DNA of 64,000 nt from an uncultured Gammaproteobacteria bacterium (lineage in GTDB: Bacteria; Patescibacteriota; Patescibacteriia; UBA9934), in contig CAYVLY010000001.1 of the NCBI GenBank assembly GCA_964452565.1, positions 643,053-707,052 on the forward strand, given 5' to 3'. The notes below the pieces were generated by a model, which was not told the DNA's origin, did no database searches, and saw nothing but the letters and a program-made list of their open reading frames with translations. Below are positions 16,343 to 64,000 of this stretch, piece after piece. The translations under genes and the position numbers were made by a program. Each line of letters starts with the position of its first letter. Position 1 is the stretch's first letter.

Positions 16343-17779
16343 TTGCAGAGATCTGTTATTACCCCCATTGCTATGAACACCCACGAACTATGGCAGGCCA
16401 CTTTAGGCGAGCTTGAGCTAAAGCTCAGCAAAGCTCACTTTACTACGTGGTTTAGAAACACCTTTATTGTTGATTATGAAAATCACCAGGTGGTTGTGGG
16501 GGTTCCAAATACATTTACAAAAGCGTGGCTTGAGAAAAAGTATCACAAGGACATCTTAAATGCGCTTCAAAACATTACAGAACAGCCTTTGAAAGGACTG
16601 GGGTATCAAGTTGAAACACGCCCATCCGAACCAAAGGCTATTGTTTTTGAAACAGAGAAGCAAGTAACTGACGCTCCTGAACCACAACAGGCATACGAGG
16701 TTGCCGAAAGCCTTGGGTTCACAACTGCCGGTCAGGAAAGTGGCGGAACTAGGCCATCCTCACTCAATAAAAACTATACTTTCAACTCTTTTGTTGTAGG
16801 AAAACAAAATGAGCTCGCCTACGCTGCAGCCCAGGCTGTTGCCGCACACCCAGGAGGTACATACAACCCCGTTTTTGTGTATGGCGACGTGGGGCTAGGA
16901 AAAACACACCTTTTGCAGGCCGTTGGACACCACATCAAAAAACAAAATCCAAACGCACGTGTCTTATATGCCAGCTGCGAGCACTTCACCAATGATTTTA
17001 TCCAGGCTGTGCGCGCAGGAAGAGCAAAGGAATTTAAGGACAGGTACCGAAACGTTGATCTATTGCTCATCGACGACATTCAGTTCATTACAGGAAAAGA
17101 AGGAACCCAGGAGGAATTCTTCCATACCTTCAATGCGCTTCACCAGGAAAACAAACAGATCGTGATTTCCTCTGACAGGCCACCAAAAGCAATCGCAGCA
17201 CTTGAAAAGCGGCTTTTGTCGCGCCTAGAGTGGGGAATGTTGGTCGATATCGGGGCCCCAGACCTTGAAACACGTATCGCAATTCTTCAAATCAAGTGCC
17301 AAAAGCGTGGAATCGATTTAGCTCGAGACATTCTGCACTATGTTGCATCAAATATCTCATCAAATGTGCGAGAACTTGAGGGTGCTCTAAATAAAATAGT
17401 CGCTTACCACCAATTTAAAAACCTTGATCCAACACTTGAGACTGTAACTCCGATCGTTGATGGATTTGATCTGAACACGATCAAGAAGACCGTGTCTCCA
17501 AAGCACATCATTCAGACAGTTGCTGAGTACTTTGACATTGATATCTCTGATGTTCTTGGAAAGAGTCGCGAAAAGCGCCTAGCGTTTCCGCGACAAATCA
17601 TTATGTTCCTACTACGAGAAGAAATGAGCATCTCTTATCCATCGATTGGTCAGGAGCTTGGTGGAAGAGACCACACAACAGCAATGCACGCCTACTCTAA
17701 GATCCAAAAAATTCTCAAAGACGACGAACAGCTAAAAAGAGACCTTGATCTAATCAAACAAAAGATGTACTCCGGATAA
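16343..17779 (+). CDS. dnaA: Chromosomal replication initiator DnaA
   Basis: AAA+ Walker A motif GDVGLGKTHLL, sensor regions, and a C-terminal DNA-binding domain. It sits in the classical rpmH...dnaA-dnaN arrangement. Confidence 0.95.
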   Translation: MQRSVITPIAMNTHELWQATLGELELKLSKAHFTTWFRNTFIVDYENHQVVVGVPNTFTKAWLEKKYHKDILNALQNITEQPLKGLGYQVETRPSEPKAIVFETEKQVTDAPEPQQAYEVAESLGFTTAGQESGGTRPSSLNKNYTFNSFVVGKQNELAYAAAQAVAAHPGGTYNPVFVYGDVGLGKTHLLQAVGHHIKKQNPNARVLYASCEHFTNDFIQAVRAGRAKEFKDRYRNVDLLLIDDIQFITGKEGTQEEFFHTFNALHQENKQIVISSDRPPKAIAALEKRLLSRLEWGMLVDIGAPDLETRIAILQIKCQKRGIDLARDILHYVASNISSNVRELEGALNKIVAYHQFKNLDPTLETVTPIVDGFDLNTIKKTVSPKHIIQTVAEYFDIDISDVLGKSREKRLAFPRQIIMFLLREEMSISYPSIGQELGGRDHTTAMHAYSKIQKILKDDEQLKRDLDLIKQKMYSG

Positions 17780-32734: not shown

Positions 32735-32879
32735 TAATAGAACAAAGACTACAGAACTCAGATCACAGATAAGGATCGGCGAAAGCTGATTCTTTTGTTT
32801 TTACACTGGGTTCTGTGTTCCAGCCGTCGCTACTTCGTAGCTATGGCCGGCAGGCTGCTTTCTGCTATAATAAAGCCGT

Positions 32880-33527
32880 ATGAAAAAATACCCAGGACCC
32901 GTCTCAAAAATAATCTTTGACAAATCTGTAGTCTCTTTTTGCTGCAAAAACTTTAGATCTCGTCAACATAGCTATGGTTATGTTTCCTCGATCTTCAGCC
33001 TTTTCGCTAAAAAGATCCATACAGATTTTCTAAAGCTATTTCTGAGACGGGTCCTCGCAGTGTTTTTATTAACCCTTGGTTTATTTGGCGTCGGTGCGCC
33101 TGTGGTTCAGGCACAGTCTATTGCGGATCGTTATGATGACATCCAAGATCAGGGTCTTATTTTTGCCGGAATTTGTCCTGGGTCAAACGAAACTTGCGAC
33201 TGTAGAGATTATGGAAAGTGTACCCTGGAAGACATGATGCAGTTGCTTGTTAATCTAAGTGTATTCATTTTCGGAATAACAGGCTCTGTCATGATGTTGA
33301 TCATTGTATACGGGGGATTTAAGTGGATAATGGCGCACGGAGAATCTGCAATGGTCGAAGAGGGCAGAAAGGCGCTTATTGGAGGGCTCGTCGGACTGGC
33401 AATAATCATGGGCGCCTATGCTGCCATAAACGTTATCGTGTCTGTTATAAAAACCGGAGAGATTCCAACTACCGACATTGAAGAAACCATTGGTGAGGGG
33501 GCTGAGGATATTATTGATACGCAATAG
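32880..33527 (+). CDS. TrbC/VirB2-like pilin paralog 1. The start is uncertain and may be a non-ATG codon downstream.
   Basis: Signal-like hydrophobic segment, then IVYGGFKWIMAHGESAMVEEGRKALIGGLVGLAIIMGAYAAINVI. This motif is shared with the five downstream ORFs. Confidence 0.5.
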   Translation: MKKYPGPVSKIIFDKSVVSFCCKNFRSRQHSYGYVSSIFSLFAKKIHTDFLKLFLRRVLAVFLLTLGLFGVGAPVVQAQSIADRYDDIQDQGLIFAGICPGSNETCDCRDYGKCTLEDMMQLLVNLSVFIFGITGSVMMLIIVYGGFKWIMAHGESAMVEEGRKALIGGLVGLAIIMGAYAAINVIVSVIKTGEIPTTDIEETIGEGAEDIIDTQ

Positions 33528-33551
33528 GTAAAATCCTGATATAATCACTTT

Positions 33552-33893
33552 ATGAAAAAGATAAAAGCTATTATTGCAAGTATTAGTGTTATGGCCTTGC
33601 CATATGTGGTACATGCGCAAGTTTCCCTTACAAACCCTCTTGGCGAGAATGATGTTCGGGTGATCATTGGAACGGTGATCAAGGGTGCATTATCAGTTGC
33701 AGGTACTTTGGCGCTTTTAATGTTCGTATATGGAGGGATCTTGTGGCTTACGGACATGGGAAAGGGTGATCAGGTGAAAAAGGGTAAGGACATTTTGGTT
33801 TGGGCAACACTTGGAATCATCTTGATTGCTGGGGCGTATGTGTTGACCACCGCTATCTTCAACGCAATCCTCATGGGAAGCGTTGAGGGGTAG
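33552..33893 (+). CDS. TrbC/VirB2-like pilin paralog 2
   Basis: Signal peptide, then FVYGGILWLTDMGKGDQVKKGKDILVWATLGIILIAGAYVLT. Confidence 0.55.
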   Translation: MKKIKAIIASISVMALPYVVHAQVSLTNPLGENDVRVIIGTVIKGALSVAGTLALLMFVYGGILWLTDMGKGDQVKKGKDILVWATLGIILIAGAYVLTTAIFNAILMGSVEG

Positions 33894-33980
33894 CCTCTTT
33901 CCATCCCGAGCGACCGCAGGGAGTCGGGGGATCTATTAACTCAAAGATTAATTTAATCATTTAAGTAATTAAGCATTACT

Positions 33981-34385
33981 ATGACAAAAACATTGGCCAT
34001 GTTTGCACTTAGTTTCTTGCTTGTCGTCCCAGTTTTGGGAACTATGAGCTTGAGCACTGGTGTTCACGTTGCGCATGCGCAACAACTTGAAACTGAGGAT
34101 TTCTTCGAAGATGAGTTCTCAGAGAGTACTGGCTTAGGTCAAGCCGACCTAAAGTCAACAATTGGAAACCTTATTCGAGTATTCCTAGGGTTCCTTGGAA
34201 TTATCGCTGTTGTGATGGTTCTTCTTGGTGGATTTAAATGGATGACAGCTAGTGGTAATGAAGACAAGGTTGCGGAGGCAAAGCGGCTGCTCATTGCTGG
34301 TGTGGTTGGTCTTGCGATCATCTTGTCAGCGTACGCAATAACAAGCTTTGTTATTGAGTCGGTGATCACGGCATCAGCCGATTAG
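33981..34385 (+). CDS. TrbC/VirB2-like pilin paralog 3
   Basis: Signal peptide, then LLGGFKWMTASGNEDKVAEAKRLLIAGVVGLAIILSAYAIT. Confidence 0.55.
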   Translation: MTKTLAMFALSFLLVVPVLGTMSLSTGVHVAHAQQLETEDFFEDEFSESTGLGQADLKSTIGNLIRVFLGFLGIIAVVMVLLGGFKWMTASGNEDKVAEAKRLLIAGVVGLAIILSAYAITSFVIESVITASAD

Positions 34386-34429
34386 TTTTCACATGACCGT
34401 TTGTCCGCACGCTGTGGGGACATTCGGCT

Positions 34430-34789
34430 ATGCGAAAATATATCGCCCTTGCAGTCATTGGATTGCTTCTTAGCCCAACCCTTACATTTGGACAGTTAGA
34501 TCCAAGCGAGACCGGATTAGAGTCTACTGGGGAGGAGGCATATGGAACACTTGATCAATCAATAGGTCAGTGGGTTGGATCAAAGATCATCACCCCTGCA
34601 CTTGCCCTTGTTGGTGTTATATTCTTGGTACTCATGGTTTATGCTGGGTTCCTATGGATGACAGCTGGAGGAAAGTCAGACCAGGTTCAGAAAGCAAAGG
34701 ACCTGATGATACGCGCTATTATTGGAGTAATCATAATCTCCGCAGCGTATGCAATTACAACCTTTGTGTTCAGAGCTATAGGTAGCTAG
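34430..34789 (+). CDS. TrbC/VirB2-like pilin paralog 4
   Basis: Signal peptide, then MVYAGFLWMTAGGKSDQVQKAKDLMIRAIIGVIIISAAYAIT. Confidence 0.55.
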   Translation: MRKYIALAVIGLLLSPTLTFGQLDPSETGLESTGEEAYGTLDQSIGQWVGSKIITPALALVGVIFLVLMVYAGFLWMTAGGKSDQVQKAKDLMIRAIIGVIIISAAYAITTFVFRAIGS

Positions 34790-34790
34790 T

Positions 34791-35153
34791 ATGAAAAAGA
34801 TAATCACAGCGTTTACCCTGTCTGCGTTCTGCGTTCTGGGTTCTGTATTCTGGGCCAACGCCCAAGACTTCACAGGTCAACTAGATGAGGCTCAAAGTGA
34901 AGTTGGATTTGCACAAACTGATATTGCGACAATGATCGGTACTATTATCGGAGTAGCCCTTTCAGTCCTAGGAATACTACTTTTACTTCTTATAATCTAT
35001 GCTGGATTCCTATGGATGACAGCTGGAGGTGAAACAGATAAGACCAAAAAGGCTAAGGATTATATGATTAATGCAGTCATTGGTTTGATCATAACCCTAG
35101 CGGCCTATGCGATTTCGCAATTTGTTATTAATGCTATTCAGGGTACGACATAG
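34791..35153 (+). CDS. TrbC/VirB2-like pilin paralog 5
   Basis: Signal peptide, then IIYAGFLWMTAGGETDKTKKAKDYMINAVIGLIITLAAYAIS. Confidence 0.55.
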   Translation: MKKIITAFTLSAFCVLGSVFWANAQDFTGQLDEAQSEVGFAQTDIATMIGTIIGVALSVLGILLLLLIIYAGFLWMTAGGETDKTKKAKDYMINAVIGLIITLAAYAISQFVINAIQGTT

Positions 35154-35219
35154 AAAAGTATCGTGAATAATGATAAAATACTATTACTTATTAATTTAAG
35201 AGCTCTTAATTCATATACT

Positions 35220-35603
35220 ATGAGATATCTCGAAAAGCTAGGTGTGCTGCTCGCAATTGGACTTTTGTCTGTCCCAATGCTTGCTGCACCAGTTCATGCG
35301 CAAGATATCGGTACACACCTTGATACTGCTGCAGGTTCTGCAGGGCTATCAGCAAGTACTGACCTTGCAACTATTATTGGTAGCTTGATCAATGTATTCT
35401 TGACCATTCTTGGTATTATCTTGCTCGTCTTAATCCTTTATGCTGGATTCCTATGGATGACAGCTGGAGGTGAGACAGATAAGACAAAGAAGGCTAAGGA
35501 CATCATGATCAATGCGGTTATTGGATTGATCATCCTGCTTGCAGCGTATGCGATTTCAAATTTTGTAATCGAAGCGCTTGGAGAGGCAGGAGTAGCTGAC
35601 TAG
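35220..35603 (+). CDS. TrbC/VirB2-like pilin paralog 6. The C-terminal half is nearly identical to paralog 5.
   Basis: ILYAGFLWMTAGGETDKTKKAKDIMINAVIGLIILLAAYAIS. The likely start is MRYLEK at 35220 rather than the ORF-track start. Confidence 0.55.
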   Translation: MRYLEKLGVLLAIGLLSVPMLAAPVHAQDIGTHLDTAAGSAGLSASTDLATIIGSLINVFLTILGIILLVLILYAGFLWMTAGGETDKTKKAKDIMINAVIGLIILLAAYAISNFVIEALGEAGVAD

Positions 35604-35621
35604 GCAAAATACAATCAGACA

Positions 35622-35659
35622 AAAAAATTACCAGGGACATGCCCTGGTAATTTTTTATG
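35622..35659 (+). terminator. Intrinsic terminator after the pilin array
   Basis: Hairpin taccagggacatgccctggta followed by a T-run. Confidence 0.7.
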
Positions 35660-35849: not shown

Positions 35850-37649
35850 CTACGGGCAGAAGCTGGGCTTCTTGTCCTTGCCCTTGAAATGCTCGCACAC
35901 CTTCTGCTTCGTGTCCTGGGGCTCTGAGGAGGACTCGTGATGGGTCGTTGAGCTCGAGGGCACGGTGGCACTTGCGTTCTGTGAGCCGTTGAAGGCGAAC
36001 GAAAGCCCGAGTAGTACGAAGGCCAGAGGCAGGATGACGAAGAAGGCGTGCAGTAGCATGCTCCCGCCCTTTTGTGCGAGGCGTTTCCGTTCGAGTGCGT
36101 TCCAGTGATGCGGGGCAAAGGACATGAACTCCATGATGAAGTAGATGAGCATTGCCGCGACCATGAACGTATGCCAGCCTGTCATGCGTGTGACCGACCT
36201 TGTCCAGACGATCGTATCGAAGACCCAGAACATGGCCCATCCAGCGCCGAATCCCAAGGGGATCAGGGTCCCCATGAGAATTGCCAGGTGACGAGACCAG
36301 GGTTCGCGTCCACGTCCATCGTTGGCCTGCTGGCCATTGTCATCGCGCAGGATCTGGGTACTGAACCTCTGTTCAGCCCAGCGCACCAGGGGTGCGATCA
36401 GGCTTTCCCGGCTGAACGGGTTGAACTTGCTCAGCAGAGATTTGATAGCCGTCGGCAGTTTGTGGTACGGGGCAAAGATCGACCGGAAGACTGTGAAGAG
36501 CAGCACACTGCTAAGTATATGGCTCCCACTCAGGCGTAGTGGCGGGTAGTGCCAGTCGCCTGTGAGCAGGACCAGGCAGTTCAGGAAGCCGGGCTTTTCA
36601 ATGAAGCCCAATCCGTAGGACCAGAGATCCACGCTGCGGAGATAAAGGAGCGCGATAGGGATGAACCCGATCAGCCAGAGGGCGCCGATGAACAGCAGGG
36701 CGCCTCCACCCCACCCCAGCCACTTTGGCAGCCTGTTCTGGGCGAGGTTTTCGCCCCAGGCATACAGCCGGTCCTTGGGTACAAGGGCGTCGAGCTTGTC
36801 GAGTGCGACCATGAGCCAGCCCATCGGGCCAGTGCAGTGACGCTTGGCTGTCATGATGAGCCGTCGTTGGTCTTCCCAGGGGCGCATACGAGCCCACTCG
36901 AAGCCATTGTCGTGATCGTAGGGATTGAGCGTACGTCGAACCTCGTTAGGATTACTCTCAATCGCTCGAGGCAGCCCATAGCTGATCTGCCACGCGTCAC
37001 CTTCGAGTCCGTTGCTATCGTTGTCGCCATTTCGGCGGGCGGGCGTGTCGTCGCTACGCTGCTCATCTTCTGCGGCAGCCAGAATACCCATAAGCACGTC
37101 GATTTCTCGCATGGTCCAGGTAGTCCAGATGCTCAGCGGGGGCTCAGGGATGGCTTGCATGTTCGGGAGTACGCCATGTGCCTCTTCTGCGGCGCTGCCC
37201 AACGCTTCCCGGACTTCTTGTTGGGTAGGGCGGTGGCCCTGTCGAGCACGAACGGCCAAGTTGCGCAGGCCAATGCCGATACGTTCGGACACTTCCTCGA
37301 CCGCCATGCCAGCAATCGGGTTGCCCTGCGCCAGCCTGCGGCCGACAAGTTCTCCGATGAGGTTGAGCGCAACAGCGGTCAGCTGTGGCGGCACAACCAT
37401 GAGCAGAAAGTTCACCAGGCGACCGATATGGCCATCAAGCGCGTTGAGGTTTTGGGGATCTGATCGGCTGATGGCGCGCTCGAGAGCTTCTGCCATGTGT
37501 TCGATCGGAATCTTGATATAGAGGGGGATGTCGTCCATGACGTGTACCTCGTTGTGAAGGTTGATTTGGTATGGGACGGGTCGTTGATCCGTCCCAAAGA
37601 CAGGGAGATCAAGACGGCTAAACTTAGCATTGAAAACAGCTTTTGTCAA
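35850..37649 (-). CDS. Hypothetical polytopic membrane protein (599 aa), GC-rich cassette cargo
   Basis: Multiple hydrophobic helices in the C-terminal half. No recognised catalytic motif. GC-rich codon usage. Confidence 0.4.
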   Translation of the reverse strand: MTKAVFNAKFSRLDLPVFGTDQRPVPYQINLHNEVHVMDDIPLYIKIPIEHMAEALERAISRSDPQNLNALDGHIGRLVNFLLMVVPPQLTAVALNLIGELVGRRLAQGNPIAGMAVEEVSERIGIGLRNLAVRARQGHRPTQQEVREALGSAAEEAHGVLPNMQAIPEPPLSIWTTWTMREIDVLMGILAAAEDEQRSDDTPARRNGDNDSNGLEGDAWQISYGLPRAIESNPNEVRRTLNPYDHDNGFEWARMRPWEDQRRLIMTAKRHCTGPMGWLMVALDKLDALVPKDRLYAWGENLAQNRLPKWLGWGGGALLFIGALWLIGFIPIALLYLRSVDLWSYGLGFIEKPGFLNCLVLLTGDWHYPPLRLSGSHILSSVLLFTVFRSIFAPYHKLPTAIKSLLSKFNPFSRESLIAPLVRWAEQRFSTQILRDDNGQQANDGRGREPWSRHLAILMGTLIPLGFGAGWAMFWVFDTIVWTRSVTRMTGWHTFMVAAMLIYFIMEFMSFAPHHWNALERKRLAQKGGSMLLHAFFVILPLAFVLLGLSFAFNGSQNASATVPSSSTTHHESSSEPQDTKQKVCEHFKGKDKKPSFCP

Positions 37650-37659
37650 CTTAGTGAGG

Positions 37660-37688
37660 TTGACAAAGTAGCTAAAATTGGCTACAGT
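37660..37688 (+). promoter_or_regulatory. Sigma70-like promoter inside the cassette (TTGACA, 17-nt spacer, TACAGT) for the two plus-strand cargo genes
   Basis: TTGACA at 37660-37665 and TACAGT at 37683-37688. The ribosome-binding site GGAGAA lies upstream of the ATG at 37769. Confidence 0.45.
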
Positions 37689-37768
37689 TAGACGTCTGCA
37701 GAGCTCTCGTGAACTCGAGTTTCTGTAAACAAGTTTACCCCCGTCCCCTTTCCAACCCGGAGAACACC

Positions 37769-38380
37769 ATGAACATCTTGTTCGTCCTTCTCGCCCTGCT
37801 CGGGCTCCAGAGCGCCGAGGCCGGTTCTTGCAAGGAGATCTGTCCTGCGAACAAGCCCTGCTTCATCCACTACGTCGACCGCGTGCATACCACGAACGGC
37901 TGGTACCCGTGTGGCCATGGCAATCGCGCCCAGGTCCACGTGCAGTACCAGTCCAGTCGCCGCCGTACGCAGACGCGTGGCCGCGTGCACTTCCAGACCA
38001 GCCCGACCCACTACCCACCCCAGCAGTCCTACGCGGTGCCGGTGGACCCGTACCACCAGCACGGCAACCCAGTCCAGCCGCAGCTGCAGGAGGCGCAGAT
38101 CGTCGAGAGCGAGGCCGAAATCCTGGCACAGGAGCACTGGGATCAGGAACGTCGCGCCGAAGTACAGCAGGCCGAGACTCAGCGGGCTGCTGCCGAGGCT
38201 CAGAGCGATCAGCTCAGGGGTCAGACCCAGCAGCAGCAGGCCAAGATCGACAGCTTGACCAAGCAGCGTGACGCAGCCCGCAAGAAGGCCGATGAGCAGG
38301 AGGCTCGCGCCGACGAGGCCGACGAGCTTCTGCTCGAAGTCGCCGAAGAGCTCGCAGCACCACAGTCGGGGGAGGAGTAG
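37769..38380 (+). CDS. Hypothetical secreted protein with a Q/A/E-rich coiled-coil C-terminal half (cassette cargo)
   Basis: Signal peptide MNILFVLLALLGLQSAEA and coiled-coil-like low-complexity sequence. The start is taken at the internal ATG that has a ribosome-binding site. Confidence 0.4.
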   Translation: MNILFVLLALLGLQSAEAGSCKEICPANKPCFIHYVDRVHTTNGWYPCGHGNRAQVHVQYQSSRRRTQTRGRVHFQTSPTHYPPQQSYAVPVDPYHQHGNPVQPQLQEAQIVESEAEILAQEHWDQERRAEVQQAETQRAAAEAQSDQLRGQTQQQQAKIDSLTKQRDAARKKADEQEARADEADELLLEVAEELAAPQSGEE

Positions 38381-38383
38381 TAC

Positions 38384-39019
38384 ATGTACAACCTCCTCCT
38401 CGTACTGTTGCTGATTGCAGCCAGCTTTGCTCAGTCTCGCCATGCACCCCCTCCGGTGCAGCAGGCACCGGTGACGCAGGCCCATCAGAGTTCGTATTCG
38501 ACCATGATCGATCGGAACCAGATGGTTCCAGGCCGGTGTTATGTTGGCATGCAAGTCACTGGTGCTGGTGCTGGCTGGTTCGAAGCCACCCTCACCAACG
38601 ACACTCCTGCGCCGGTTCGTCTGACCATCGATGGCATCACTGTGCGTGTGTGGAAGCCCATGCAGATGCTTGCTCAGACCGCAGATGGCCAGCAGACTGC
38701 TGTGACGCGGCCTTCGACCGACCGCGTGGTCGTGAACAATGGCGGAGCTGACCAGGAGAGCTATGTGCTCAACCCTGGCGAGCGCTGCCATATGGTGCTG
38801 CCAACCACGCAGCTGGACAAGGCTGGGCGCGCACGCTGGCTCGTGGTCATGGAACAGCTTCGTGCCGTGAATCCCAACGGTCAGTACGCCACACTCGGCG
38901 TACAGGGCAGGCTTCACACCACCGAACACTCGACCATGTTCAGTGTGAACGACTGGTGGGTCATGTTCCAGACCAACAGGAAGACTCTGAACTTCCGGTT
39001 CAGCACCAAGTTCCGCTAG
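38384..39019 (+). CDS. Hypothetical secreted protein (cassette cargo)
   Basis: Signal peptide MYNLLLVLLLIAASFAQS, followed by a terminator hairpin ccgcccctcctcttggagagggcgg. Confidence 0.4.
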   Translation: MYNLLLVLLLIAASFAQSRHAPPPVQQAPVTQAHQSSYSTMIDRNQMVPGRCYVGMQVTGAGAGWFEATLTNDTPAPVRLTIDGITVRVWKPMQMLAQTADGQQTAVTRPSTDRVVVNNGGADQESYVLNPGERCHMVLPTTQLDKAGRARWLVVMEQLRAVNPNGQYATLGVQGRLHTTEHSTMFSVNDWWVMFQTNRKTLNFRFSTKFR

Positions 39020-39105
39020 CACTTCTCCGCATTCGTCCGTCCGCCGCCCCTCCTCTTGGAGAGGGCGGTTTTGCTTATGTAAAAAATCCCCGGCAGAGCC
39101 GGAGA

Positions 39106-39193: not shown

Positions 39194-40582
39194 TTAATCG
39201 CCTTTCTTATACGTATCTGACACCTGTGAGGCTGCTGCACTCATTGTATTATCTGGATCTTCCACACCTGCAAGCACTGCATCGATCAATCCTTCAAACA
39301 CATCTTCCATAACACCTGCGTCATATCCGCTGTACCAGCTTTGTGCCGTTAGAGTTTGTTCTGCAAAAGCACCAAGCAATATGTCGTCCAGCTGTGCTGC
39401 AATAAGGTCACGTAGAGCTGTTGGCTTTTGAGCTTCTTCAAGATAATTCACAACCTGCTCCTCTTCTGTTGCAAAAAGGATAAAGTTCCACGCCCATTCT
39501 GGGTTTTCACTTGAAGCAGAGACACACTCCACCCAGTAGTTCGCAAAGTTAACCTCACGACCACCAGAGATCTGAGGAACTGTAGTGATTCCATAGTTTA
39601 ACTTTGGTGCCGCTGCTTGCAGGAGCGGGATGTGGTAGCTATATCCCAAGAACATTGCGGTCTCTCCATTTGCAAAGCTCTCGAACGAGCTATCAAAGTT
39701 ATCATTCCATGTGTAGACTTCTTTGGTAGGGTTTGCAAAGTCAGTATAAAAGCTTGCAGCGTCATAACTTGGGTAAACATCCTCTGGTGCATCGTCTGGA
39801 ATCTCATGGAATTGCACTCGCCCACGTTCATCTATCATCTGCGATCCATTTTGCATCATCAAAAGTGAAAGAATGTCTGCTGCGCGCTCAACATTTTCTG
39901 AAGTCCCCAGGGCTGCCCCTGATTGTTCGACGTTTCCGTCGCTATCATACGATGTAAGAGCAATGACATCCTCTTGGAACTGGCTCCAGCTCTCTGCTGG
40001 GTTAGCGATGCCCGCGGCATTTAAAAGATCCTTATTATAGAAGAGCGCCAAACTATCCATTGACATTGGCAGACCATAAATCATTTCTACAGGGTCAATG
40101 TCTGGGTCTGGTTGATAGTCAAGCACAACATCATATGCGACTTGATCAACAAAGCTGGACTCAAGCTCACGCATACTCATTGTCGCATTTGTTCTTGAAA
40201 CCACCACAGTCTCTTTACGCAGCGTTCCCTGAAGCTCTTGATATGTCACCGTTGTTGAACTTGGCATTGGTTCAAGTAATACCTGATATGCAGGTAGCCA
40301 TGTATTGTGAAGCGAGAGAATGTCAGGACCTCGATCTTCAGCAAACGCTTGAATAAGCTCATCTTCGTACTCATCAAACCTAAGTTTCTTATATTCGATG
40401 CTGATGTTTGGGTGATAAGCGCGATAATTGTCCACGATAACATCAAATGTATCGTCATCATCAAACACGCGCCAAATGACCAAGTCGACATCCTCTAGAG
40501 AAGCTGAGCTTCCTGATCCCCCACATCCTGCCCCCATGGTGAAAAGCAGAACAAGTAAGAGTAGTGCGGCTAGTTTTTTCAT
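39194..40582 (-). CDS. ABC transporter extracellular solute-binding lipoprotein (probably carbohydrate-type, family 1)
   Basis: Lipobox LLFTMGAGCGGS. Size and overall pattern fit a sugar solute-binding protein. Confidence 0.55.
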   Translation of the reverse strand: MKKLAALLLLVLLFTMGAGCGGSGSSASLEDVDLVIWRVFDDDDTFDVIVDNYRAYHPNISIEYKKLRFDEYEDELIQAFAEDRGPDILSLHNTWLPAYQVLLEPMPSSTTVTYQELQGTLRKETVVVSRTNATMSMRELESSFVDQVAYDVVLDYQPDPDIDPVEMIYGLPMSMDSLALFYNKDLLNAAGIANPAESWSQFQEDVIALTSYDSDGNVEQSGAALGTSENVERAADILSLLMMQNGSQMIDERGRVQFHEIPDDAPEDVYPSYDAASFYTDFANPTKEVYTWNDNFDSSFESFANGETAMFLGYSYHIPLLQAAAPKLNYGITTVPQISGGREVNFANYWVECVSASSENPEWAWNFILFATEEEQVVNYLEEAQKPTALRDLIAAQLDDILLGAFAEQTLTAQSWYSGYDAGVMEDVFEGLIDAVLAGVEDPDNTMSAAASQVSDTYKKGD

Positions 40583-40583
40583 A

Positions 40584-41453
40584 TTACAAAAGAGATTTTA
40601 TAAATTTGCGCATTTCTGTCTTGAGTTCTTTATGCTCAAGTGCAAGCGCGATATTTGTTTTAAGCCACGATTCTTTTGTCCCAGTGTCTCGATATACTCC
40701 ATCAACGATTTTGATATACATTGGATGTTCTTCAGCCAGCTTGGCAATAGCATCTACCAGCCAAACCTCACCACCTTTACCGCGTTTAGTTTTGTGCAAA
40801 ACACTGAAAATTTCTGGAGGTAAGATATACCCTCCAACGGCCGCAATGTCAGACTTAGCTTTTTCTGGTCCAGGCTTTTCAACAAGTCCCTTTGCCTGCC
40901 AAACGTCTTTATCAACCTCTGCCACAGGATCTGCAATCGCAAATCGTTTCTTGCCTTCGTCTCCAACCTTGAGCCCTGTTAGAACAATATCTTCGTATTT
41001 GTCATAAACATCAATGAGCTGCTGAAGATGAGGCTTTTTCCCTCCAGAAAAGAATTCATCTCCCCATACAACTGCAAAGGGCTCATCACCAATTACATGT
41101 TCGGCATTTAATACTGGTGTCCCATTTCCATAAGGACCTTTCTGACGGATGTATGTGAAGTTCGCCATGTCTGCGATTTTTTTGATGCGCTCACGGATGT
41201 CGTCTTTTTTTTGCTTTTTGAGCCAGGCCTGAAGTTCGTAGTTGTAGTCAAAGTGATCCTCCACCGCACGCTTTGCCGCACCAGTTACTAGAATGATGTC
41301 TGTAATTCCACTATCAACTGCCCCCTCCACAACGTATTGTATAACAGGCTTATCAATAATCGGCATCATCTCCTTTGGCATGGCCTTTGTTACGGGAAGG
41401 AATCGAGTTCCATACCCTGCCACTGGAATCACAACTTTTCTTATTTTTTGCAT
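40584..41453 (-). CDS. galU: UTP-glucose-1-phosphate uridylyltransferase
   Basis: N-terminal signature KVVIPVAGYGTRFLPVTKAMPKEMMPIIDKP. The start is taken at MQKIRK. Confidence 0.8.
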   Translation of the reverse strand: MQKIRKVVIPVAGYGTRFLPVTKAMPKEMMPIIDKPVIQYVVEGAVDSGITDIILVTGAAKRAVEDHFDYNYELQAWLKKQKKDDIRERIKKIADMANFTYIRQKGPYGNGTPVLNAEHVIGDEPFAVVWGDEFFSGGKKPHLQQLIDVYDKYEDIVLTGLKVGDEGKKRFAIADPVAEVDKDVWQAKGLVEKPGPEKAKSDIAAVGGYILPPEIFSVLHKTKRGKGGEVWLVDAIAKLAEEHPMYIKIVDGVYRDTGTKESWLKTNIALALEHKELKTEMRKFIKSLL

Positions 41454-41569
41454 AAAATTTGAGGGATTTAAGTACATTGATTATATCAGAGCGGGCTTTG
41501 TGGTGAAAGAAAAATACCAACACCTTTCTAGGATGTGGTGGGCAGTGTGATTGACATGTATGAGGTGTC

Positions 41570-56813: not shown

Positions 56814-59558
56814 TTAAGCTCCAGCAGGAGCAGTTTGTAAGTTTGTGCGTCGCACAAAGAAGTAAGCTAGTCCGATCAAAGCTGCTAGAAGTAACCCACC
56901 ACCAATCCATGGCGTGATGTTATTACTCTGTGCTGCCGCAACAGGTACTTCATCACTAACCTCCTTATTGACCTCTTCCTGAATTTGCACAACGTCTTGC
57001 GAAGTTCTTGGGTACACACGCTGTTCACCACTAACGGTTCGGAGAACTCCTGTGATCTCAAGCTCTGAACTCATTGAGCTCCACTGCATACCTTCATGTG
57101 TGTTTGCGACAATGGTGACACTGCCCGTTGAGTCACGAAGGACAATCTTTGTGTCGTTCATATCAATCACCTCGCCACGAACAGTAACTAATGATCCATC
57201 TAGCATTGAATCCAATCCATTGATCGATGTACTTGTTGCATTCAAGTCAACATGGCCGGTGATCTGGACATCTCCCATTTCAGAAAGCTTAACCCTTTGC
57301 TCCCCACGACTTTCAGAAAGCTCACCACTAGCAGTTACAACATCTCCAAGCTTCAACATTGGCCAGTCTGCGTAGTAGAAGTAGAGTTGCGCACCTTCGA
57401 TGAATGCAATCTGCGACCCAAACGTTCCAGGAAGCGCCGTTACAATCCCGCTGACAACTACCTCATCTGCTGAAGCAGATGAATAGCTTGAGTTTGATTT
57501 GCTGCTAGAACTTGATGAGCTCGAAGTGGTTTTTGGCGTCTCTGCTATGGCAACAACGCGATGGGTTTCTGGTTCAGTGGAAACGTCATTATCATTTCCC
57601 GTGCTTGCCTGCTGATCATGTTGAACATCTTTGTGTTCATCTTGTTGATCAGTGCTGGACTCGGATGTTTCTGTGGTTGATGACTCTGACTGTGCTTCAT
57701 CTTCTGTGTTTTGGGTTCCGTTTTCTGTATCCTGTTGATTTTGCTCCTCCTCATAGTTTATTTCGTTAGCTGCAGATTTTGTTATGTCCGACGTAACAGC
57801 CCAGTCAGATCCACTCAGTGCCAGACTCTCGCCCTTGTTGGGCTTATCAACCTCCTCAGTTCCATAGCTTATGGAATCTATCAGATCACCAGCAGGGTCA
57901 TATAGGTACACTGTGTCGCCACCATTATTAAGTTTGCCCTTGGGCTCCTCGACCACCGCGTATTCATTAGGCCCGATCGTTCCTTTGAGCTCTGTTTTTC
58001 GATCAGTAGCATCAGCTACAGACCATCCAGTGAGGTCGATCGAATTATCGGTCGTATTGTATAGCTCGACCCATTCGACCTCACCCTCAACAGGGTCACT
58101 CACAAGTTCGTTAATGATCAACACACCCGATTCATACGAGAGAGATTCACTGGTCTCAGATTCATCTGAGTCGTCAGTTTGATTAACGACCTCGTCATCC
58201 ACGGCCTCTTCTTCCGCCTCTTCTTCGTCAGCTTCAAGAGATCCCTCGGCTTCGCTCGGGATGGAGGGGGTATCGACTTCTTCAACCTCCTCGATTGCAT
58301 CAGATTCCTGAACCTCATCAGAGAAGATGTTAAGTGACCCCGGAGTCGGCTCTGTAGTTACGGTCCAGACGTTTTCGATTAGTGCTAAAGAGTAGCTTTT
58401 TTCTGGCGCTTCGATTTCATCGGTTCCGTAGGTAATCGAATCAACAACACTTCCATCAGGATCTACAAGCTCGATTGTGTCGCCACCATTGTTAAGTTGC
58501 CCTGAGGGGCTGTAAATGACCGCATAGCTTCCTGATTCGATTGAAGTTTTATCAAATACGGATGACCGTTCAATTGCATCATGCACTGTCCAACCTTCAA
58601 GTTCGACTGAATCACCTGTCGGGTTGTAGATCTCAACCCACTCTTCTTGGTCCTCAGCGGGATCGCTTACAAATTCATTAATAACCAGTGAGCTTTGATC
58701 CGCCTCTTTGACCCCCTCAGTCTCCTCAGTAGTATCGGACGTTACGTAGAGTGTTCCTGGTGTTCCAAGTTGATTAGAGTCACTTAAGTTCGTATTTGAT
58801 CCTGAGCTGTACCATCCAAGCGTTGCAAGGTCGCGCTGCATCGATGCCTTAGGGTCTGTGGATCCAGATGGAGGAGATCCCCCGTCTCCGGCAACATCAA
58901 CAACAGTTCCGTCTGGCATAGCAAGCATGATCTCAAGTGATGAGTTGCTTAAAGATACCGAGGCGGTCACAAGATCAGGCCGCACCGTTAAAGTTGTCTT
59001 GTCTGAGCCAAGATCGTAATTAGATACAAGCAATACATTGCCGGCAGCAAGCATGGTGCCGTCCGCAAGTGCTATCGCATTTCCAGAGGTGGCACATCCG
59101 GTGAGAATCCACCCGCTAAGATCCACATCCGCACCATGTGCGTTATAGAGTTCAATCCACTCATCGGCCTGTGAGAGTTCGCTTCCGGCCCAGTTAACCT
59201 CACCGATGAGGATATTTGGGACTTCTGTGGCGATTTCAGTACTGGCTGTTTCGACTCCAGATCCATCGGCCGCTGATCCTTTTGAGGATTCTTCCGCGGC
59301 TTCTTCAACAGTGGGTTCGTCAGTTTCTGATTCATCTCCTGTCGATCCTTCGGATTCTTGAGAATCTGGTTCTTCGACGACTTCTGGTCCATCTGCCTGT
59401 TCGGTCGTTGCGTCAGACTCAACTGTTTCTGTTTCTTCGAGCACGACTTGTTGCTCATCTGTACTCTCTGTTGTAGTTTGTGGTGCTTCCTGTGCACTGG
59501 CGGGTATTGCCAGCACAAAAAACACGAAGCAGAAGAGTCCATATAATAGTTTTTTCAT
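56814..59558 (-). CDS. Large secreted surface protein with three lamin-tail-domain (LTD) repeats, acidic or Ser-rich linkers and a C-terminal TM anchor
   Basis: Signal peptide MKKLLYGLFCFVFFVLAIPASA. LTD cores repeat three times: ILIGEVNWAGSE..WIELYN, LVINEFVSDPAED..WVEIYN and LIINELVSDPVEG..WVELYN. C-terminal anchor LLLAALIGLAYFFVRRT. Confidence 0.65.
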   Translation of the reverse strand: MKKLLYGLFCFVFFVLAIPASAQEAPQTTTESTDEQQVVLEETETVESDATTEQADGPEVVEEPDSQESEGSTGDESETDEPTVEEAAEESSKGSAADGSGVETASTEIATEVPNILIGEVNWAGSELSQADEWIELYNAHGADVDLSGWILTGCATSGNAIALADGTMLAAGNVLLVSNYDLGSDKTTLTVRPDLVTASVSLSNSSLEIMLAMPDGTVVDVAGDGGSPPSGSTDPKASMQRDLATLGWYSSGSNTNLSDSNQLGTPGTLYVTSDTTEETEGVKEADQSSLVINEFVSDPAEDQEEWVEIYNPTGDSVELEGWTVHDAIERSSVFDKTSIESGSYAVIYSPSGQLNNGGDTIELVDPDGSVVDSITYGTDEIEAPEKSYSLALIENVWTVTTEPTPGSLNIFSDEVQESDAIEEVEEVDTPSIPSEAEGSLEADEEEAEEEAVDDEVVNQTDDSDESETSESLSYESGVLIINELVSDPVEGEVEWVELYNTTDNSIDLTGWSVADATDRKTELKGTIGPNEYAVVEEPKGKLNNGGDTVYLYDPAGDLIDSISYGTEEVDKPNKGESLALSGSDWAVTSDITKSAANEINYEEEQNQQDTENGTQNTEDEAQSESSTTETSESSTDQQDEHKDVQHDQQASTGNDNDVSTEPETHRVVAIAETPKTTSSSSSSSSKSNSSYSSASADEVVVSGIVTALPGTFGSQIAFIEGAQLYFYYADWPMLKLGDVVTASGELSESRGEQRVKLSEMGDVQITGHVDLNATSTSINGLDSMLDGSLVTVRGEVIDMNDTKIVLRDSTGSVTIVANTHEGMQWSSMSSELEITGVLRTVSGEQRVYPRTSQDVVQIQEEVNKEVSDEVPVAAAQSNNITPWIGGGLLLAALIGLAYFFVRRTNLQTAPAGA

Positions 59559-59916: not shown

Positions 59917-60001
59917 TGGTGGGCGAGAAGGGACTCGAACCCTTACGCCTTGCGGCACTAGTTCCTAAGACTAGCGTGTCTACCAATTCCACCACCCGCC
60001 C
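59917..60001 (-). tRNA. tRNA-Leu (anticodon TAG)
   Basis: Hand-folded: acceptor GGGCGGG, anticodon stem CTAGT/ACTAG with loop CTTAGGA, long variable arm GTGCCGCAAGGCGTAAG, T-arm AAGGGTTCGAGTCCCTT, CCA encoded. Confidence 0.8.
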
Positions 60002-60067
60002 ATGGGTGCGAATTGCGACAGTATTATTACACAAATATACAAATTAATCAAGGCCTGGGGGTTATTG

Positions 60068-60101
60068 AAAAGCAAAAACGGACCCGTGTGAGGGGTCCGT
60101 T
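60068..60101 (-). terminator. Minus-strand intrinsic terminator after the MotB-like gene
   Basis: Minus-strand reading: acggacccctcacacgggtccgt followed by ttttgctttt. Confidence 0.6.
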
Positions 60102-60126
60102 GTGAACGGGAGTGCGCTTGAGCGAC

Positions 60127-60780: not shown

Positions 60781-60783
60781 GGA

Positions 60784-62097: not shown

Positions 62098-62282
62098 CTT
62101 TGGTAAGGGGCCGGTGTTGCCAGGAGGCGGACTGATTTTTAGTAAAAACTACAAAGCATTCCGCCGCCTGATAACCTCGAAAATTAGCAGGAAATAAGGA
62201 TTTTGTCAATGATTGGCCGAATTTTCTTGAATTATTAGCCTATAATGCTATGCTGCAACTCCCGTGATATACTCATAGGGTT

Positions 62283-63849: not shown

Positions 63850-64000
<151 letters not shown>

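What the first reader, a model, noticed from the sequence alone, without database searches (positions are those of the whole stretch)
32880..35603. Tandem array of six TrbC/VirB2-like pilin paralogs
Seen in sequence: six consecutive plus-strand ORFs of 113-215 aa each. Each has an N-terminal signal or hydrophobic segment and a shared core, (Y/L)(A/G)GF(L/K)WMTAGG..DK.KKAKD..I.A.IGL.I.L.AYAI. This is two hydrophobic helices around a basic loop, which is the organisation of TrbC/VirB2 type-IV-secretion pilins. Paralogs 5 and 6 are nearly identical in their C-terminal halves, pointing to recent duplication. Inference: this is an expanded, diversifying pilin repertoire, for example for antigenic or adhesive variation. 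It is not accompanied in this window by VirB4, VirB6 or other T4SS machinery.
Basis: partly seen in the sequence, partly recalled or inferred. Interest (0 to 1): 0.6.

Follow-up and report, generated by a model that had tools for sequence, protein, structure and literature searches.

The report
Six-gene VirB2-like pilin operon, Patescibacteria
This is a real operon of six small pilin-like membrane proteins in an ultra-small (Patescibacteria, Uhrbacteria-like) bacterium; such arrays are already described in this phylum, so it is an ordinary new example, and its six copies are old, conserved and distinct rather than a recently expanded, varying repertoire.

Summary
Six consecutive plus-strand genes (32880-35603) all match Pfam PF18895 (T4SS_pilin) above the curated cut-off. 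Each has a signal peptide ending [V/A]-x-A|Q (F-G|Q in pil4), two hydrophobic helices and a short charged loop. A profile-profile comparison with annotated VirB2/TrbC pilins gives 87.5% probability and aligns the cleavage site and the conserved Trp.

The organism is a Patescibacterium of class ABY1, closest to Candidatus Uhrbacteria SI037_bin110. Tandem VirB2-like pilin arrays are already published for this phylum: 441 arrays of 2-11 genes, and a six-gene essential array in Southlakia epibionticum. This is therefore a new member of a known kind.

- Each paralog has a 1:1 ortholog (67-86% identity) in a related genome, against 21-57% between paralogs.
- The order of paralog types is conserved across many genomes.
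- dN is far below dS.
- pil5 and pil6 are only 76% identical in DNA over their C-terminal halves.

No T4SS machinery lies in the window or within 10 kb of 80 related loci. The rest of the genome could not be searched.

Side findings: a conserved sugar-binding lipoprotein/GalU partner, a palindromic insertion in pil1, a GC-rich neighbouring island, and giant pilin-domain adhesins in relatives.

The parts
32771..32804 (+). Terminator-like hairpin plus T-run after the upstream pgi-like gene (ends 32734). It marks the upstream boundary of the pilin transcription unit.
   Evidence: 10-pair stem, T-rich tail
32863..32871 (+). Extended -10 promoter-like element TGcTATAAT, 8 nt before the pil1 ATG. 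A TATAAT sits at the same spacing in the L001 ortholog, which suggests a leaderless or very short-leader transcript (inference).
   Evidence: sequence read directly; TATAAT and its spacing conserved with L001
32880..33527 (+). pil1: 215-aa PF18895 pilin. It is the long type, with a Cys-containing exposed N-domain (…GICPGSNETCDCRDYGKC…) and an acidic C-tail. Signal peptide cleavage is predicted after VQA78|Q.
   Evidence: 29.3 bits; an identical 215-aa protein is recorded from NCBI and from a second assembly
32892..33054 (+). In-frame palindromic insertion of about 160 nt inside the pil1 signal-peptide coding region. It is absent from all orthologs found and has 12-nt perfect terminal inverted repeats GGACCCGTCTCA. 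As RNA, 32875-33075 folds into one long hairpin.
   Evidence: I1; dG -64.6 kcal/mol, z = -9.0
33540..33545 (+). TATAAT 6 nt before the pil2 ATG, conserved in L001. Possible internal promoter (inference).
33552..33893 (+). pil2: 113-aa PF18895 pilin. Cleavage is predicted after VHA22|Q. The mature N-terminus VSLTNPLG..D.R.I is conserved in the pil2 orthologs inspected.
   Evidence: (28.0 bits)
33981..34385 (+). pil3: 134-aa PF18895 pilin. Cleavage is predicted after AHA33|Q. It has an acidic exposed segment and is the most widely recognisable orthogroup.
   Evidence: (39.4 bits; PF04956 20.6 bits, below cut-off)
34430..34789 (+). pil4: 119-aa PF18895 pilin. Cleavage is predicted after TFG21|Q.
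   Evidence: (31.6 bits)
34791..35153 (+). pil5: 120-aa PF18895 pilin. Cleavage is predicted after ANA24|Q. Its start lies 1 nt after the pil4 stop.
   Evidence: 35.4 bits; P0020; NF045849 40.0 bits
35220..35603 (+). pil6: 127-aa PF18895 pilin, with the start at M19 of the 146-aa ORF that begins at GTG 35163. Cleavage is predicted after VHA27|Q.
   Evidence: 42.3 bits; P0001 = 127 aa; AF2 hairpin, core pLDDT 88-97; NF045849 41.6 bits
35622..35662 (.). Perfect 15-nt inverted repeat (AAAAAATTACCAGGG / CCCTGGTAATTTTTT) with a 5-nt loop, flanked by an A-run and a T-run. It is probably a bidirectional terminator between the convergent pil6 and the 599-aa gene.
   Evidence: I5
39194..40582 (-). SBP_bac_1-type sugar-binding lipoprotein (lipobox …MGAGC). 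In 28 of 34 evaluable related arrays its ortholog lies directly upstream of the array on the same strand. Here and in the closest relatives it is displaced to the other side, on the opposite strand. A functional link is inferred from synteny only.
40584..41477 (-). GalU-like UTP-glucose-1-phosphate uridylyltransferase. Its ortholog precedes the lipoprotein gene in 23 of those 28 arrays.
   Evidence: (TIGR01099, 290 bits, below the 326.8 cut-off)

Best explanation
The region is a self-contained operon in a Patescibacterium of class ABY1, an Uhrbacteria relative. It is bounded by terminator-like hairpins and has its own TATAAT just before pil1. It encodes six non-redundant paralogs of the PF18895 'T4SS_pilin' family, the Patescibacterial counterpart of VirB2/TrbC conjugative pilins.

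Shown: each protein has an N-terminal signal sequence ending in [V/A]-x-A|Q (F-G|Q in pil4), then a variable segment of 15-45 residues, two long hydrophobic helices joined by a 4-10-residue charged loop, and a short tail.

Inferred: the proteins are exported by Sec and cut by signal peptidase I to leave an N-terminal Gln. They then sit in the membrane with the N-terminus out, the loop in and the C-terminus out, as VirB2 does. From that pool they are extracted and polymerised by the MPF_FATA-like T4SS of Patescibacteria, encoded elsewhere in the genome, into a pilus-like filament or conduit at the contact with a host cell.

The six types are each conserved 1:1 and in the same order across genomes, each with its own conserved exposed motif. 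They most likely play distinct structural roles, comparable to one major subunit plus specialised minor or tip subunits. pil1, with its Cys-rich ectodomain and acidic tail, is the obvious specialised member. They are unlikely to be interchangeable variants.
For: Family membership:
- PF18895 is above the gathering score for all six.
- 79 of 80 family members also match NCBIfam NF045849, a Mycoplasma ICE 'pilin-like conjugal transfer protein'.
- PF04956 TrbC gives sub-threshold hits for pil3 and pil6, and 8 of the 120 listed homologs of pil6 carry a precomputed PF04956 hit.
- hhalign of 80 family members against 8 annotated MPF_T VirB2/TrbC proteins gives 87.5% probability and E = 3.6e-6 over 77 columns. 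It aligns A|Q with A|Q and the conserved Trp with Trp.

Architecture:
- Hydropathy and cleavage motifs fit a signal peptide plus two TM segments.
- The AF2 model has helices at 49-81 and 86-122 with pLDDT 88-97.

Conservation:
- A syntenic six-gene array in Ca. Uhrbacteria SI037_bin110 has 1:1 orthologs at 67-86% identity.
- The order of paralog types is colinear in many loci.
- dN/dS is about 0.04-0.08 over whole genes, with dS saturated.
- Array size peaks at 6: 15 of 37 complete arrays.

Literature:
- 441 VirB2-like arrays of 2-11 genes are reported in Patescibacteria (PMC12102498).
- The six PF18895 genes SEML1_0014-0019 of S. epibionticum lie beside a VirB6-like gene. The entries read (SEML1_0017-0019) are scored essential, and the paper and a review call the pilin array essential (PMC10633639, PMC12857230).
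Against: - No VirB4, VirB6, VirB3, VirB8 or VirD4 gene lies in the 64-kb window.
- None lies within 10 kb of any of the 80 related pilin loci. Recurrent neighbours are housekeeping genes, and no large P-loop ORF resembles VirB4. The link to a T4SS therefore rests on family homology and on another class, Saccharimonadia.
- No pilus has been observed in any Patescibacterium (PMC12857230).
- PF04956 itself is below its cut-off.
- Foldseek against the PDB found only generic helical hairpins, with no E-value at or below 0.001.
- The conserved neighbour in ABY1 is a sugar-binding lipoprotein, not T4SS machinery.
- The major/minor-subunit idea is inference from conservation only.
Confidence: 0.6

Rival explanations
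1. T4SS-independent envelope module. The PF18895 hairpin is simply a two-helix membrane anchor or display module. The six small proteins, together with the conserved sugar-binding lipoprotein and GalU, form or decorate a cell-surface structure. That structure would serve host attachment or sugar capture without any T4SS.
For: - In 28 of 34 evaluable ABY1 arrays the SBP_bac_1 lipoprotein gene lies directly upstream on the same strand, 23 of them with GalU before it, while the outer flanks vary.
- No T4SS gene lies within 10 kb of any of the 80 loci.
- The same domain forms the N-terminus of proteins of 600-3,400 aa rich in Ig-like domains (Big_5, Big_7, TIG, fn3). There it looks like an anchor for adhesins.
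Against: - The family is homologous to conjugative pilins and to a Mycoplasma ICE conjugal-transfer protein.
- In Saccharimonadia the array lies inside the T4SS locus and is essential along with it.
- Many ABY1 genomes are listed as carrying VirB4, located elsewhere, near comF/recG/radA.
- In the window lineage the lipoprotein/GalU pair has been separated from the array with no loss of any pilin.
Confidence: 0.25
2. One reading: a recently expanded, diversifying repertoire of interchangeable pilin variants. It would be used for antigenic or adhesive variation, as proposed for the VirB2 paralogs of Bartonella and Anaplasma.
For: - Paralogs are very divergent (21-57% identity), mostly in the exposed N-terminal segment.
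- pil5 and pil6 exposed segments evolve fastest (pN 0.31; dN 0.45, omega about 0.28).
- Array size varies from 4 to 12 among relatives.
- The published survey offers host-range versatility as a possibility.
Against: - Orthologs are 1:1, in conserved order, and each type has its own conserved exposed motif across genomes.
- dN is far below dS in all six genes.
- The pil5/pil6 duplication predates the split from SI037_bin110, and there is no sign of gene conversion.
- All six lie in one co-directional operon, with no invertible element or silent-cassette arrangement.
Confidence: 0.1
3. A different small-membrane-protein family: holin, bacteriocin immunity protein, VirB3/PrgI-like protein, or type IV (PilA-type) pilin.
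For: The proteins are small and have two hydrophobic helices.
Against: - The six pilins have no holin or other annotated-function PHROG match. The only hit is one weak match for pil4, to an unknown-function family (E = 0.0015).
- No competing Pfam family comes near its cut-off.
- A cleavable Sec signal with A-x-A|Q is present. VirB3 and PrgI lack one. PilA-type pilins instead carry a G|F/M…E prepilin site, which is absent here (sequences; the VirB3/PrgI and PilA criteria come from my own knowledge).
- No phage or bacteriocin genes lie nearby.
Confidence: 0.03

Closest known systems
VirB2-like (PF18895) pilin arrays of Patescibacteria: the six-gene essential array SEML1_0014-0019 of Southlakia epibionticum (Wang et al. 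2023, PMC10633639) and the 441 arrays surveyed by Quinonero-Coronel et al. 2025 (PMC12102498)
   Same: Same Pfam family, tandem co-directional arrangement, six genes, strong divergence between paralogs, chromosomal location, and proximity to the replication origin (dnaA lies about 15 kb away here).
   Different: Here, and throughout the ABY1 relatives sampled, the array is not inside or beside a T4SS gene cluster. Its conserved partner is an SBP-type lipoprotein plus GalU. The maximum paralog identity (57.5% for pil5/pil6) is slightly above the published maximum of 54%. pil1 carries a unique palindromic insertion.
TrbC/VirB2 conjugative pilins of Gram-negative MPF_T systems (Agrobacterium VirB2, RP4 TrbC; Pfam PF04956)
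   Same: A signal peptide ending A-x-A|Q, invariant in the 8 annotated VirB2/TrbC proteins aligned. A mature protein of about 75-100 residues with two hydrophobic helices and a short loop. A conserved Trp after helix 1. Remote homology by hhalign (87.5%).
   Different: - PF04956 scores are below the gathering cut-off.
- The organism is a monoderm.
- There are no adjacent virB1, virB3 or virB4 genes.
- There are six paralogs instead of one.
- The loop is Lys/Asp-rich (GGxxDKxxKAKD).
- Cyclisation and phospholipid-containing pilus assembly are unknown here.
NCBIfam NF045849, 'Mbov_0395 family pilin-like conjugal transfer protein' of Mycoplasma integrative conjugative elements
   Same: pil5 and pil6 reach the curated cut-off (40.0 and 41.6 bits against 40). 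79 of 80 relatives match at E <= 1e-3. The host is also a monoderm with an MPF_FATA-type T4SS.
   Different: The window genes are in a housekeeping chromosomal context, with no integrase, relaxase or coupling protein. pil1-pil4 are below the cut-off. Nothing beyond the model's name was available to me on the Mycoplasma protein.
Tandem VirB2 paralogs of Bartonella and Anaplasma T4SS loci
   Same: Several divergent virB2 copies lie in a row.
   Different: Those are thought to give antigenic or host-adhesion variation (as cited in PMC12102498). Here the copies are stable orthogroups under purifying selection.

Membership tests
Pfam PF18895 T4SS_pilin (Patescibacterial VirB2-like pilins) | Profile HMM score at or above the gathering cut-off (26.6 bits) | tested here: met
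   Scores of 29.3, 28.0, 39.4, 31.6, 35.4 and 42.3 bits for pil1-pil6
Pfam PF18895 T4SS_pilin (Patescibacterial VirB2-like pilins) | Cleavable signal peptide followed by a two-helix hydrophobic hairpin with a short charged loop | tested here: met
   Hydropathy and cleavage motifs; AF2 model with helices 49-81 and 86-122 at pLDDT 88-97. No dedicated signal-peptide predictor was available.
Pfam PF18895 T4SS_pilin (Patescibacterial VirB2-like pilins) | Occurs in a Patescibacterial genome, commonly as a tandem array | tested here: met
   The closest genome is Ca. Uhrbacteria SI037_bin110, with the same six-gene synteny. Arrays of 4-12 genes occur in relatives.
Pfam PF18895 T4SS_pilin (Patescibacterial VirB2-like pilins) | A T4SS (VirB4 plus VirB6-like and other components) is encoded in the same genome | not testable with these tools
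   Only 64 kb of the 709.5-kb contig is held. No such gene lies in the window or within 10 kb of 80 related loci. The literature places ABY1 T4SS loci near comF/recG/radA.
Pfam PF04956 TrbC/VirB2 | Profile HMM score at or above the gathering cut-off (27.9 bits) | tested here: not met
   Best scores are 20.6 bits (pil3) and 19.5 bits (pil6). The other four give no hit.
Pfam PF04956 TrbC/VirB2 | Detectable homology to bona fide VirB2/TrbC pilins | tested here: inconclusive
   hhalign of A3 against A4 gives 87.5% probability and E = 3.6e-6 over 77 columns, covering the signal peptide through helix 1 only. Hydrophobic-helix bias cannot be excluded. The PDB profile search found no pilin.
Pfam PF04956 TrbC/VirB2 | Signal peptidase site A-x-A|Q leaving an N-terminal Gln | tested here: met
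   The motif is invariant in 8 annotated VirB2/TrbC proteins. It reads VQA|Q, VHA|Q, AHA|Q, ANA|Q and VHA|Q in pil1, 2, 3, 5 and 6, and TFG|Q in pil4. Actual cleavage was not tested.
Pfam PF04956 TrbC/VirB2 | Gene embedded in a virB/trb operon (virB1-virB2-virB3-virB4…) | tested here: not met
   The flanking genes are pgi-like and a 599-aa unknown membrane protein. Compare the canonical plasmid loci.
Pfam PF04956 TrbC/VirB2 | Polymerises into an extracellular pilus (with phospholipid); head-to-tail cyclisation in some members | not testable with these tools
   This needs microscopy or mass spectrometry. The cyclisation of VirB2/TrbC is recalled from the literature and was not tested here.
NCBIfam NF045849 Mycoplasma ICE pilin-like conjugal transfer protein | Score at or above the curated cut-off (40 bits) | tested here: inconclusive
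   pil6 scores 41.6 and pil5 scores 40.0, so both meet it. pil3 at 36.4 and pil4 at 21.2 fall below it, and pil1 and pil2 give no hit. 79 of 80 relatives match at E <= 1e-3.
NCBIfam NF045849 Mycoplasma ICE pilin-like conjugal transfer protein | Carried on an integrative conjugative element | tested here: not met
   The neighbourhood is housekeeping and syntenic between species. No integrase, relaxase or T4CP was found.
Type IV pilins (PilA-type, T4P/T2SS) | Class III signal peptide with a G|F/M-x-x-x-E prepilin peptidase site and a single N-terminal hydrophobic helix | tested here: not met
   No such motif occurs in any of the six sequences, and each has two TM helices after a Sec-type signal.
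Holins / bacteriocin immunity proteins | Match to a holin or immunity family; phage or bacteriocin gene context | tested here: not met
   The only PHROG hit for the six pilins is one weak match for pil4, to an unknown-function family. No Pfam holin or immunity hit was found. No phage or bacteriocin genes lie nearby.

The most novel reading that the evidence does not exclude
In ABY1 Patescibacteria the pilin array is not an accessory of the T4SS gene cluster. It is the core of a separate, conserved module: GalU, an orphan sugar-binding lipoprotein, and about six fixed, non-interchangeable pilin types, supplemented elsewhere by giant pilin-domain adhesins. This module would build a heteromeric surface filament or conduit for host attachment and nutrient (sugar) capture. 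The family would have entered Patescibacteria together with the MPF_FATA T4SS from a Mollicutes-type ICE that already had a pilin-like protein, contrary to the current view that monoderm T4SSs lack VirB2 homologs.
Probability: 0.15. Interest if true: 0.65.

Novelty: new member of a known kind. Interest (0 to 1): 0.3.

Why it matters
Patescibacteria make up a large share of bacterial diversity and live attached to other microbes. In the one species where genetics is possible, the pilin array and the T4SS are essential, but their function is unknown. This locus adds no new category.

The comparative data do sharpen the question. The six paralogs behave as fixed, distinct components rather than variable antigens. 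In this class they travel with a sugar-binding lipoprotein rather than with T4SS genes. Both points can be tested and bear on how these cells attach to and feed from hosts. The match to a Mycoplasma ICE pilin-like family also bears on where the pilins of a monoderm T4SS came from.

Tried and rejected
2. The profile search of PDB sequences returned only spurious summed repeat matches to designed 'Pizza' propellers.
3. tblastn of pil6 against 72,556 plasmids found no match.
4. The source contig could not be retrieved. The exact pil6 protein is not in the gene-position index and carries no accession or name. The genome could therefore not be searched for VirB4/VirB6.
5. I looked for VirB4 near pilin genes in 80 related loci, by clustering, a Walker-A screen and Pfam on cluster representatives. 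I found only housekeeping proteins: HisRS, LepB, PNPase, LeuRS, RelA/SpoT, Der, an LCP-family protein, and FtsH-like proteins (some were identified from the sequence by eye).
6. I tested whether the adjacent 599-aa membrane protein is VirB6-like. It has no Pfam, NCBIfam or PHROG hit and only two relatives in 5.8 billion proteins. Its structure was not predicted, because the alignment would be too shallow.
7. Gene conversion or recent duplication of pil5/pil6 is rejected.
8. The 444-aa minus-strand ORF 37688-39022 is rejected as a shadow ORF in GC-rich DNA. The conserved genes there are two plus-strand ORFs.
9. The first attempt at a 12-sequence alignment query for related loci failed for lack of a conserved stretch. 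A 6-sequence alignment worked.


Full report
**1. Observation**

The six plus-strand ORFs exist at the stated coordinates. All six match Pfam PF18895 (T4SS_pilin) above the curated gathering score of 26.6, with 29.3, 28.0, 39.4, 31.6, 35.4 and 42.3 bits. PF04956 (TrbC/VirB2) appears only below its cut-off, for pil3 (20.6 bits) and pil6 (19.5 bits).

Pairwise identities run from 21% to 57.5%. The public version of pil6 starts at M19 of the 146-aa ORF, giving 127 aa (P0001).

**2. Anatomy**

- **Protein architecture.** Hydropathy shows, in every copy, a basic N-terminus plus a hydrophobic signal segment. The signal ends in VQA|Q, VHA|Q, AHA|Q, TFG|Q, ANA|Q and VHA|Q for pil1 to pil6. A variable hydrophilic stretch of 15-45 residues follows. 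After it come two TM-length segments separated by a short loop that carries both Lys/Arg and Asp/Glu.
- **Predicted structure.** An AlphaFold2 model of pil6, built from 80 homologs, gives two long antiparallel helices (49-81 and 86-122). Block-mean pLDDT is 88-97 over the hairpin core and 54-69 over the signal peptide and exposed segment.
- **Transcription unit.** The array looks like a discrete unit. A terminator-like hairpin follows the upstream pgi-like gene at 32771-32794. An extended -10 element (TGcTATAAT, 32863-32871) lies 8 nt before the pil1 ATG. A second TATAAT lies 6 nt before the pil2 ATG. Both TATAAT boxes are conserved at the same spacing in the closest relative.
- **Gene spacing and 3' end.** Intergenic gaps are 1-87 nt. 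A perfect 15-nt inverted repeat with flanking A-run and T-run lies at 35622-35656, after pil6.

**3. Organism and context**

pil6 and pil5 occur as exact sequences on one NCBI contig of 709,517 bp. The nearest named relatives are Candidatus Uhrbacteria and other Patescibacteria. The published survey's genome table places Uhrbacteria assemblies in class ABY1.

The window carries dnaA (16343-17779) and dnaN. The cumulative GC-skew minimum falls at about 20-22 kb, so the array lies about 15 kb from the origin on the leading strand.

I scanned all but one (1-948) of the distinct ORFs of 150 aa or more against Pfam. They are housekeeping genes or unknowns. None is VirB4, VirB6, VirB3, VirB8 or VirD4, or a relaxase.

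**4. Related loci**

Ca. Uhrbacteria SI037_bin110 (GCA_018673485.1) has the same gene order: VIT1, redoxin, SufS, NifU, an oxidoreductase, pgi, six pilins, then a membrane protein of about 540 aa.

- **Orthology.** It is one-to-one. Each window pilin is 67-86% identical to its positional counterpart and 24-68% to the others.
- **Wider sampling.** A scan of 185,579 species-representative genomes gave 462 confirmed relatives, and the best 80 loci were fetched.
- **Two locus types.** Using an HMM of the pilins, I found two architectures. The first is arrays of small pilins, with 4-12 genes and a mode of 6 (15 of 37 complete arrays). The second is a pair of large proteins, 600-900 aa and 1,900-3,400 aa. 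Each starts with a PF18895 domain followed by Big_5, Big_7, TIG or fn3 Ig-like domains. The pair usually follows signal peptidase I and HisRS genes, which I identified from the sequence.
- **Conserved order.** In the small arrays the best-match order pil1-type, pil2-type, pil3-type, pil4-type, then pil5/6-type recurs in many genomes. The bit-score margins are large for types 1-3.
- **Conserved exposed motifs.** The type 1 and type 2 orthologs inspected keep their own exposed motif: '…DIQDQG(L/I)IFAGIC…C.C' for pil1 and 'V.LTNPLG..D.R' for pil2.

**5. Test of 'recent duplication / diversification'**

The C-terminal halves of pil5 and pil6 are 82% identical in protein and 76% in DNA. The corresponding values between orthologs are 84-85% and 73-74%. 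The same pil5/pil6 split exists in the relative. The duplication is therefore older than the species split, and there is no clear sign of gene conversion.

Nei-Gojobori estimates between orthologs give whole-gene dN of 0.08-0.18 against dS above 1.4, which is saturated. That puts omega at about 0.04-0.08. The exposed segments are also constrained, with omega about 0.09 for pil3 and pil4 and about 0.28 for pil6. These values are approximate because of the saturation, but the direction is unambiguous. No invertible or cassette-like repeat structure is present.

**6. Relation to canonical pilins**

I took eight annotated VirB2/TrbC genes from MPF_T plasmids, each lying immediately upstream of a virB3-family gene and, in seven of the eight, downstream of a virB1-type lytic transglycosylase gene. 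Their alignment has an invariant A-x-A|Q site, the same motif as in five of the six window pilins.

The profile-profile comparison of 80 family members with these eight gives 87.5% probability and E = 3.6e-6 over 77 columns. It aligns the cleavage site and the Trp after helix 1.

NCBIfam adds a link I did not find in the literature searches run here. Its model NF045849, 'Mbov_0395 family pilin-like conjugal transfer protein' of Mycoplasma ICEs, is matched by pil6 (41.6 bits) and pil5 (40.0 bits) at its cut-off of 40. 79 of 80 family members also match it at E <= 1e-3.

No holin or other annotated-function phage family matches the six pilins. No plasmid carries a close relative.

**7. What is already known**

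- Quinonero-Coronel et al. 2025 searched 3,035 Patescibacterial genomes with PF18895 and PF04956, among other profiles. They reported 441 arrays of 2-11 VirB2-like genes in 383 assemblies, with mean identity 25% and maximum 54%. In ABY1 the T4SS loci lie with comF, recG and radA.
- Wang et al. 2023 showed by Tn-seq that the T4SS cluster of Southlakia epibionticum, including its predicted pilin subunits, is essential. Their tables list PF18895 hits for SEML1_0014-0016 next to the VirB6-like SEML1_0013. They score SEML1_0017-0019 as essential.
- A 2025 review describes the array as six VirB2-like pilins. It notes that no pilus has yet been seen and that the function of the system is unknown.

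The window's array is therefore a further example of a described feature.

**8. Mechanism**

Shown: family membership, the signal-peptide-plus-hairpin architecture, operon organisation, stable orthogroups and purifying selection.

Inferred: Sec export, cleavage before Gln, and an N-out / loop-in / C-out topology. That topology fits the giant fusion proteins, whose Ig-like domains follow helix 2. Also inferred is extraction and polymerisation by a distally encoded MPF_FATA-like T4SS into a filament or conduit at the host interface. In this picture the six types fill distinct structural roles, and pil1 is a specialised member.

The main rival is a T4SS-independent surface module. It is kept alive by two facts. 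First, no T4SS gene lies near any of the 80 ABY1 loci. Second, in 28 of 34 evaluable arrays an SBP_bac_1 lipoprotein gene lies directly upstream on the same strand, 23 of them preceded by GalU, while the outer flanks differ. In the window, L001 and L048, the array has been rearranged relative to this pair. The pair now lies at 39194-41477 on the minus strand.

**9. Verdict**

The family assignment is supported, but the evolutionary and functional inference is not. This is a new member of a known kind and of modest interest. The additional comparative observations are worth recording as leads.

Noticed in passing
window 32892-33054 (inside pil1): An in-frame insertion of about 160 nt follows codon 4 of pil1. 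It is a single long imperfect palindrome with 12-nt perfect terminal inverted repeats (GGACCCGTCTCA). As RNA, 32875-33075 folds into one hairpin (dG -64.6 kcal/mol, z = -9.0). It adds about 54 residues before the signal-peptide core. It is absent from all 9 orthologs found, which are 161-177 aa. It is present in two independent assemblies of this organism, so it is not an assembly artefact. It looks like a MITE or REP-type element, and its effect on pil1 is unknown. No other copy of its terminal repeat occurs in the window or in the 91 loci fetched.
   Followed up: partly
window 35850-39100: A GC-rich island, with GC 0.59-0.62 against 0.43 in the array, lies directly beside the array. It holds a 599-aa protein (35850-37649, minus strand) with a hydrophilic N-half and 4-6 TM segments in the C-half. 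This protein has no family match and only two relatives in 5.8 billion proteins. The island also holds two plus-strand ORFs with N-terminal signal-like hydrophobic segments (37709-38380 and 38384-39019). The 444-aa minus-strand ORF there is a shadow ORF. Very divergent orthologs of the 599-aa gene (23-29% identity) lie beside the array in four relatives, and GC-rich ORFs beside the arrays are recurrent.
   Followed up: partly
window 39194-41477 (minus strand); L005-L083 upstream of arrays: An 'orphan' SBP_bac_1 sugar-binding lipoprotein, with no ABC permease or ATPase beside it, is paired with GalU. The two form a conserved block with the pilin array in ABY1 genomes. The lipoprotein lies directly upstream on the same strand in 28 of 34 arrays, 23 of them with GalU before it. 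In the window's lineage the array has been rearranged away from the pair.
   Followed up: partly
L009 9914-20290, L035 7269-15802 and about 30 other loci: Relatives carry a second locus type, including a second contig of the same Uhrbacteria genome as L001. It consists of two adjacent large proteins, 600-900 aa and 1,900-3,400 aa. Each has an N-terminal PF18895 pilin domain followed by Big_5, Big_7, TIG or fn3 domains. The pair usually lies downstream of signal peptidase I and HisRS genes. These may be pilin-anchored giant adhesins.
   Followed up: partly
pil3-pil6 and 79 of 80 homologs (alignment A3): These proteins match NCBIfam NF045849, a 'pilin-like conjugal transfer protein' of Mycoplasma ICEs. 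This sits awkwardly with the published statement that MPF_FATA (monoderm) T4SSs lack VirB2 homologs. It hints that the Patescibacterial pilins could have come with that machinery.
   Followed up: partly
window 32866-32879 and 33540-33551; L001 equivalents: TATAAT boxes lie only 8 nt and 6 nt upstream of the pil1 and pil2 start codons. They are conserved in a relative whose synonymous sites are saturated. No Shine-Dalgarno sequence is evident, which suggests leaderless or near-leaderless mRNAs.
   Followed up: no
window 60000-62100: A second GC-rich island (GC 0.61) lies just beside a tRNA-Leu gene (59917-60001). It holds two minus-strand genes with no family match: a 437-aa protein with N-terminal TM segments and internal repeats, and a 217-aa protein. 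It is unrelated to the first island or to any fetched locus. It may be horizontally acquired.
   Followed up: partly
window 56814-59558 (minus strand) and 63851-64000: A 914-aa protein carries three Lamin Tail Domains. The first 148 nt of a 23S rRNA gene lie at the window's end, with no 16S gene upstream in the window.
   Followed up: no
locus titles: Many of the fetched Patescibacteria-like contigs are titled 'uncultured Gammaproteobacteria bacterium' (the TPA_asm binchicken/SRP assemblies). The gene content and pilin arrays of those inspected match ABY1 Patescibacteria, so these record titles appear to be mislabelled.
   Followed up: no
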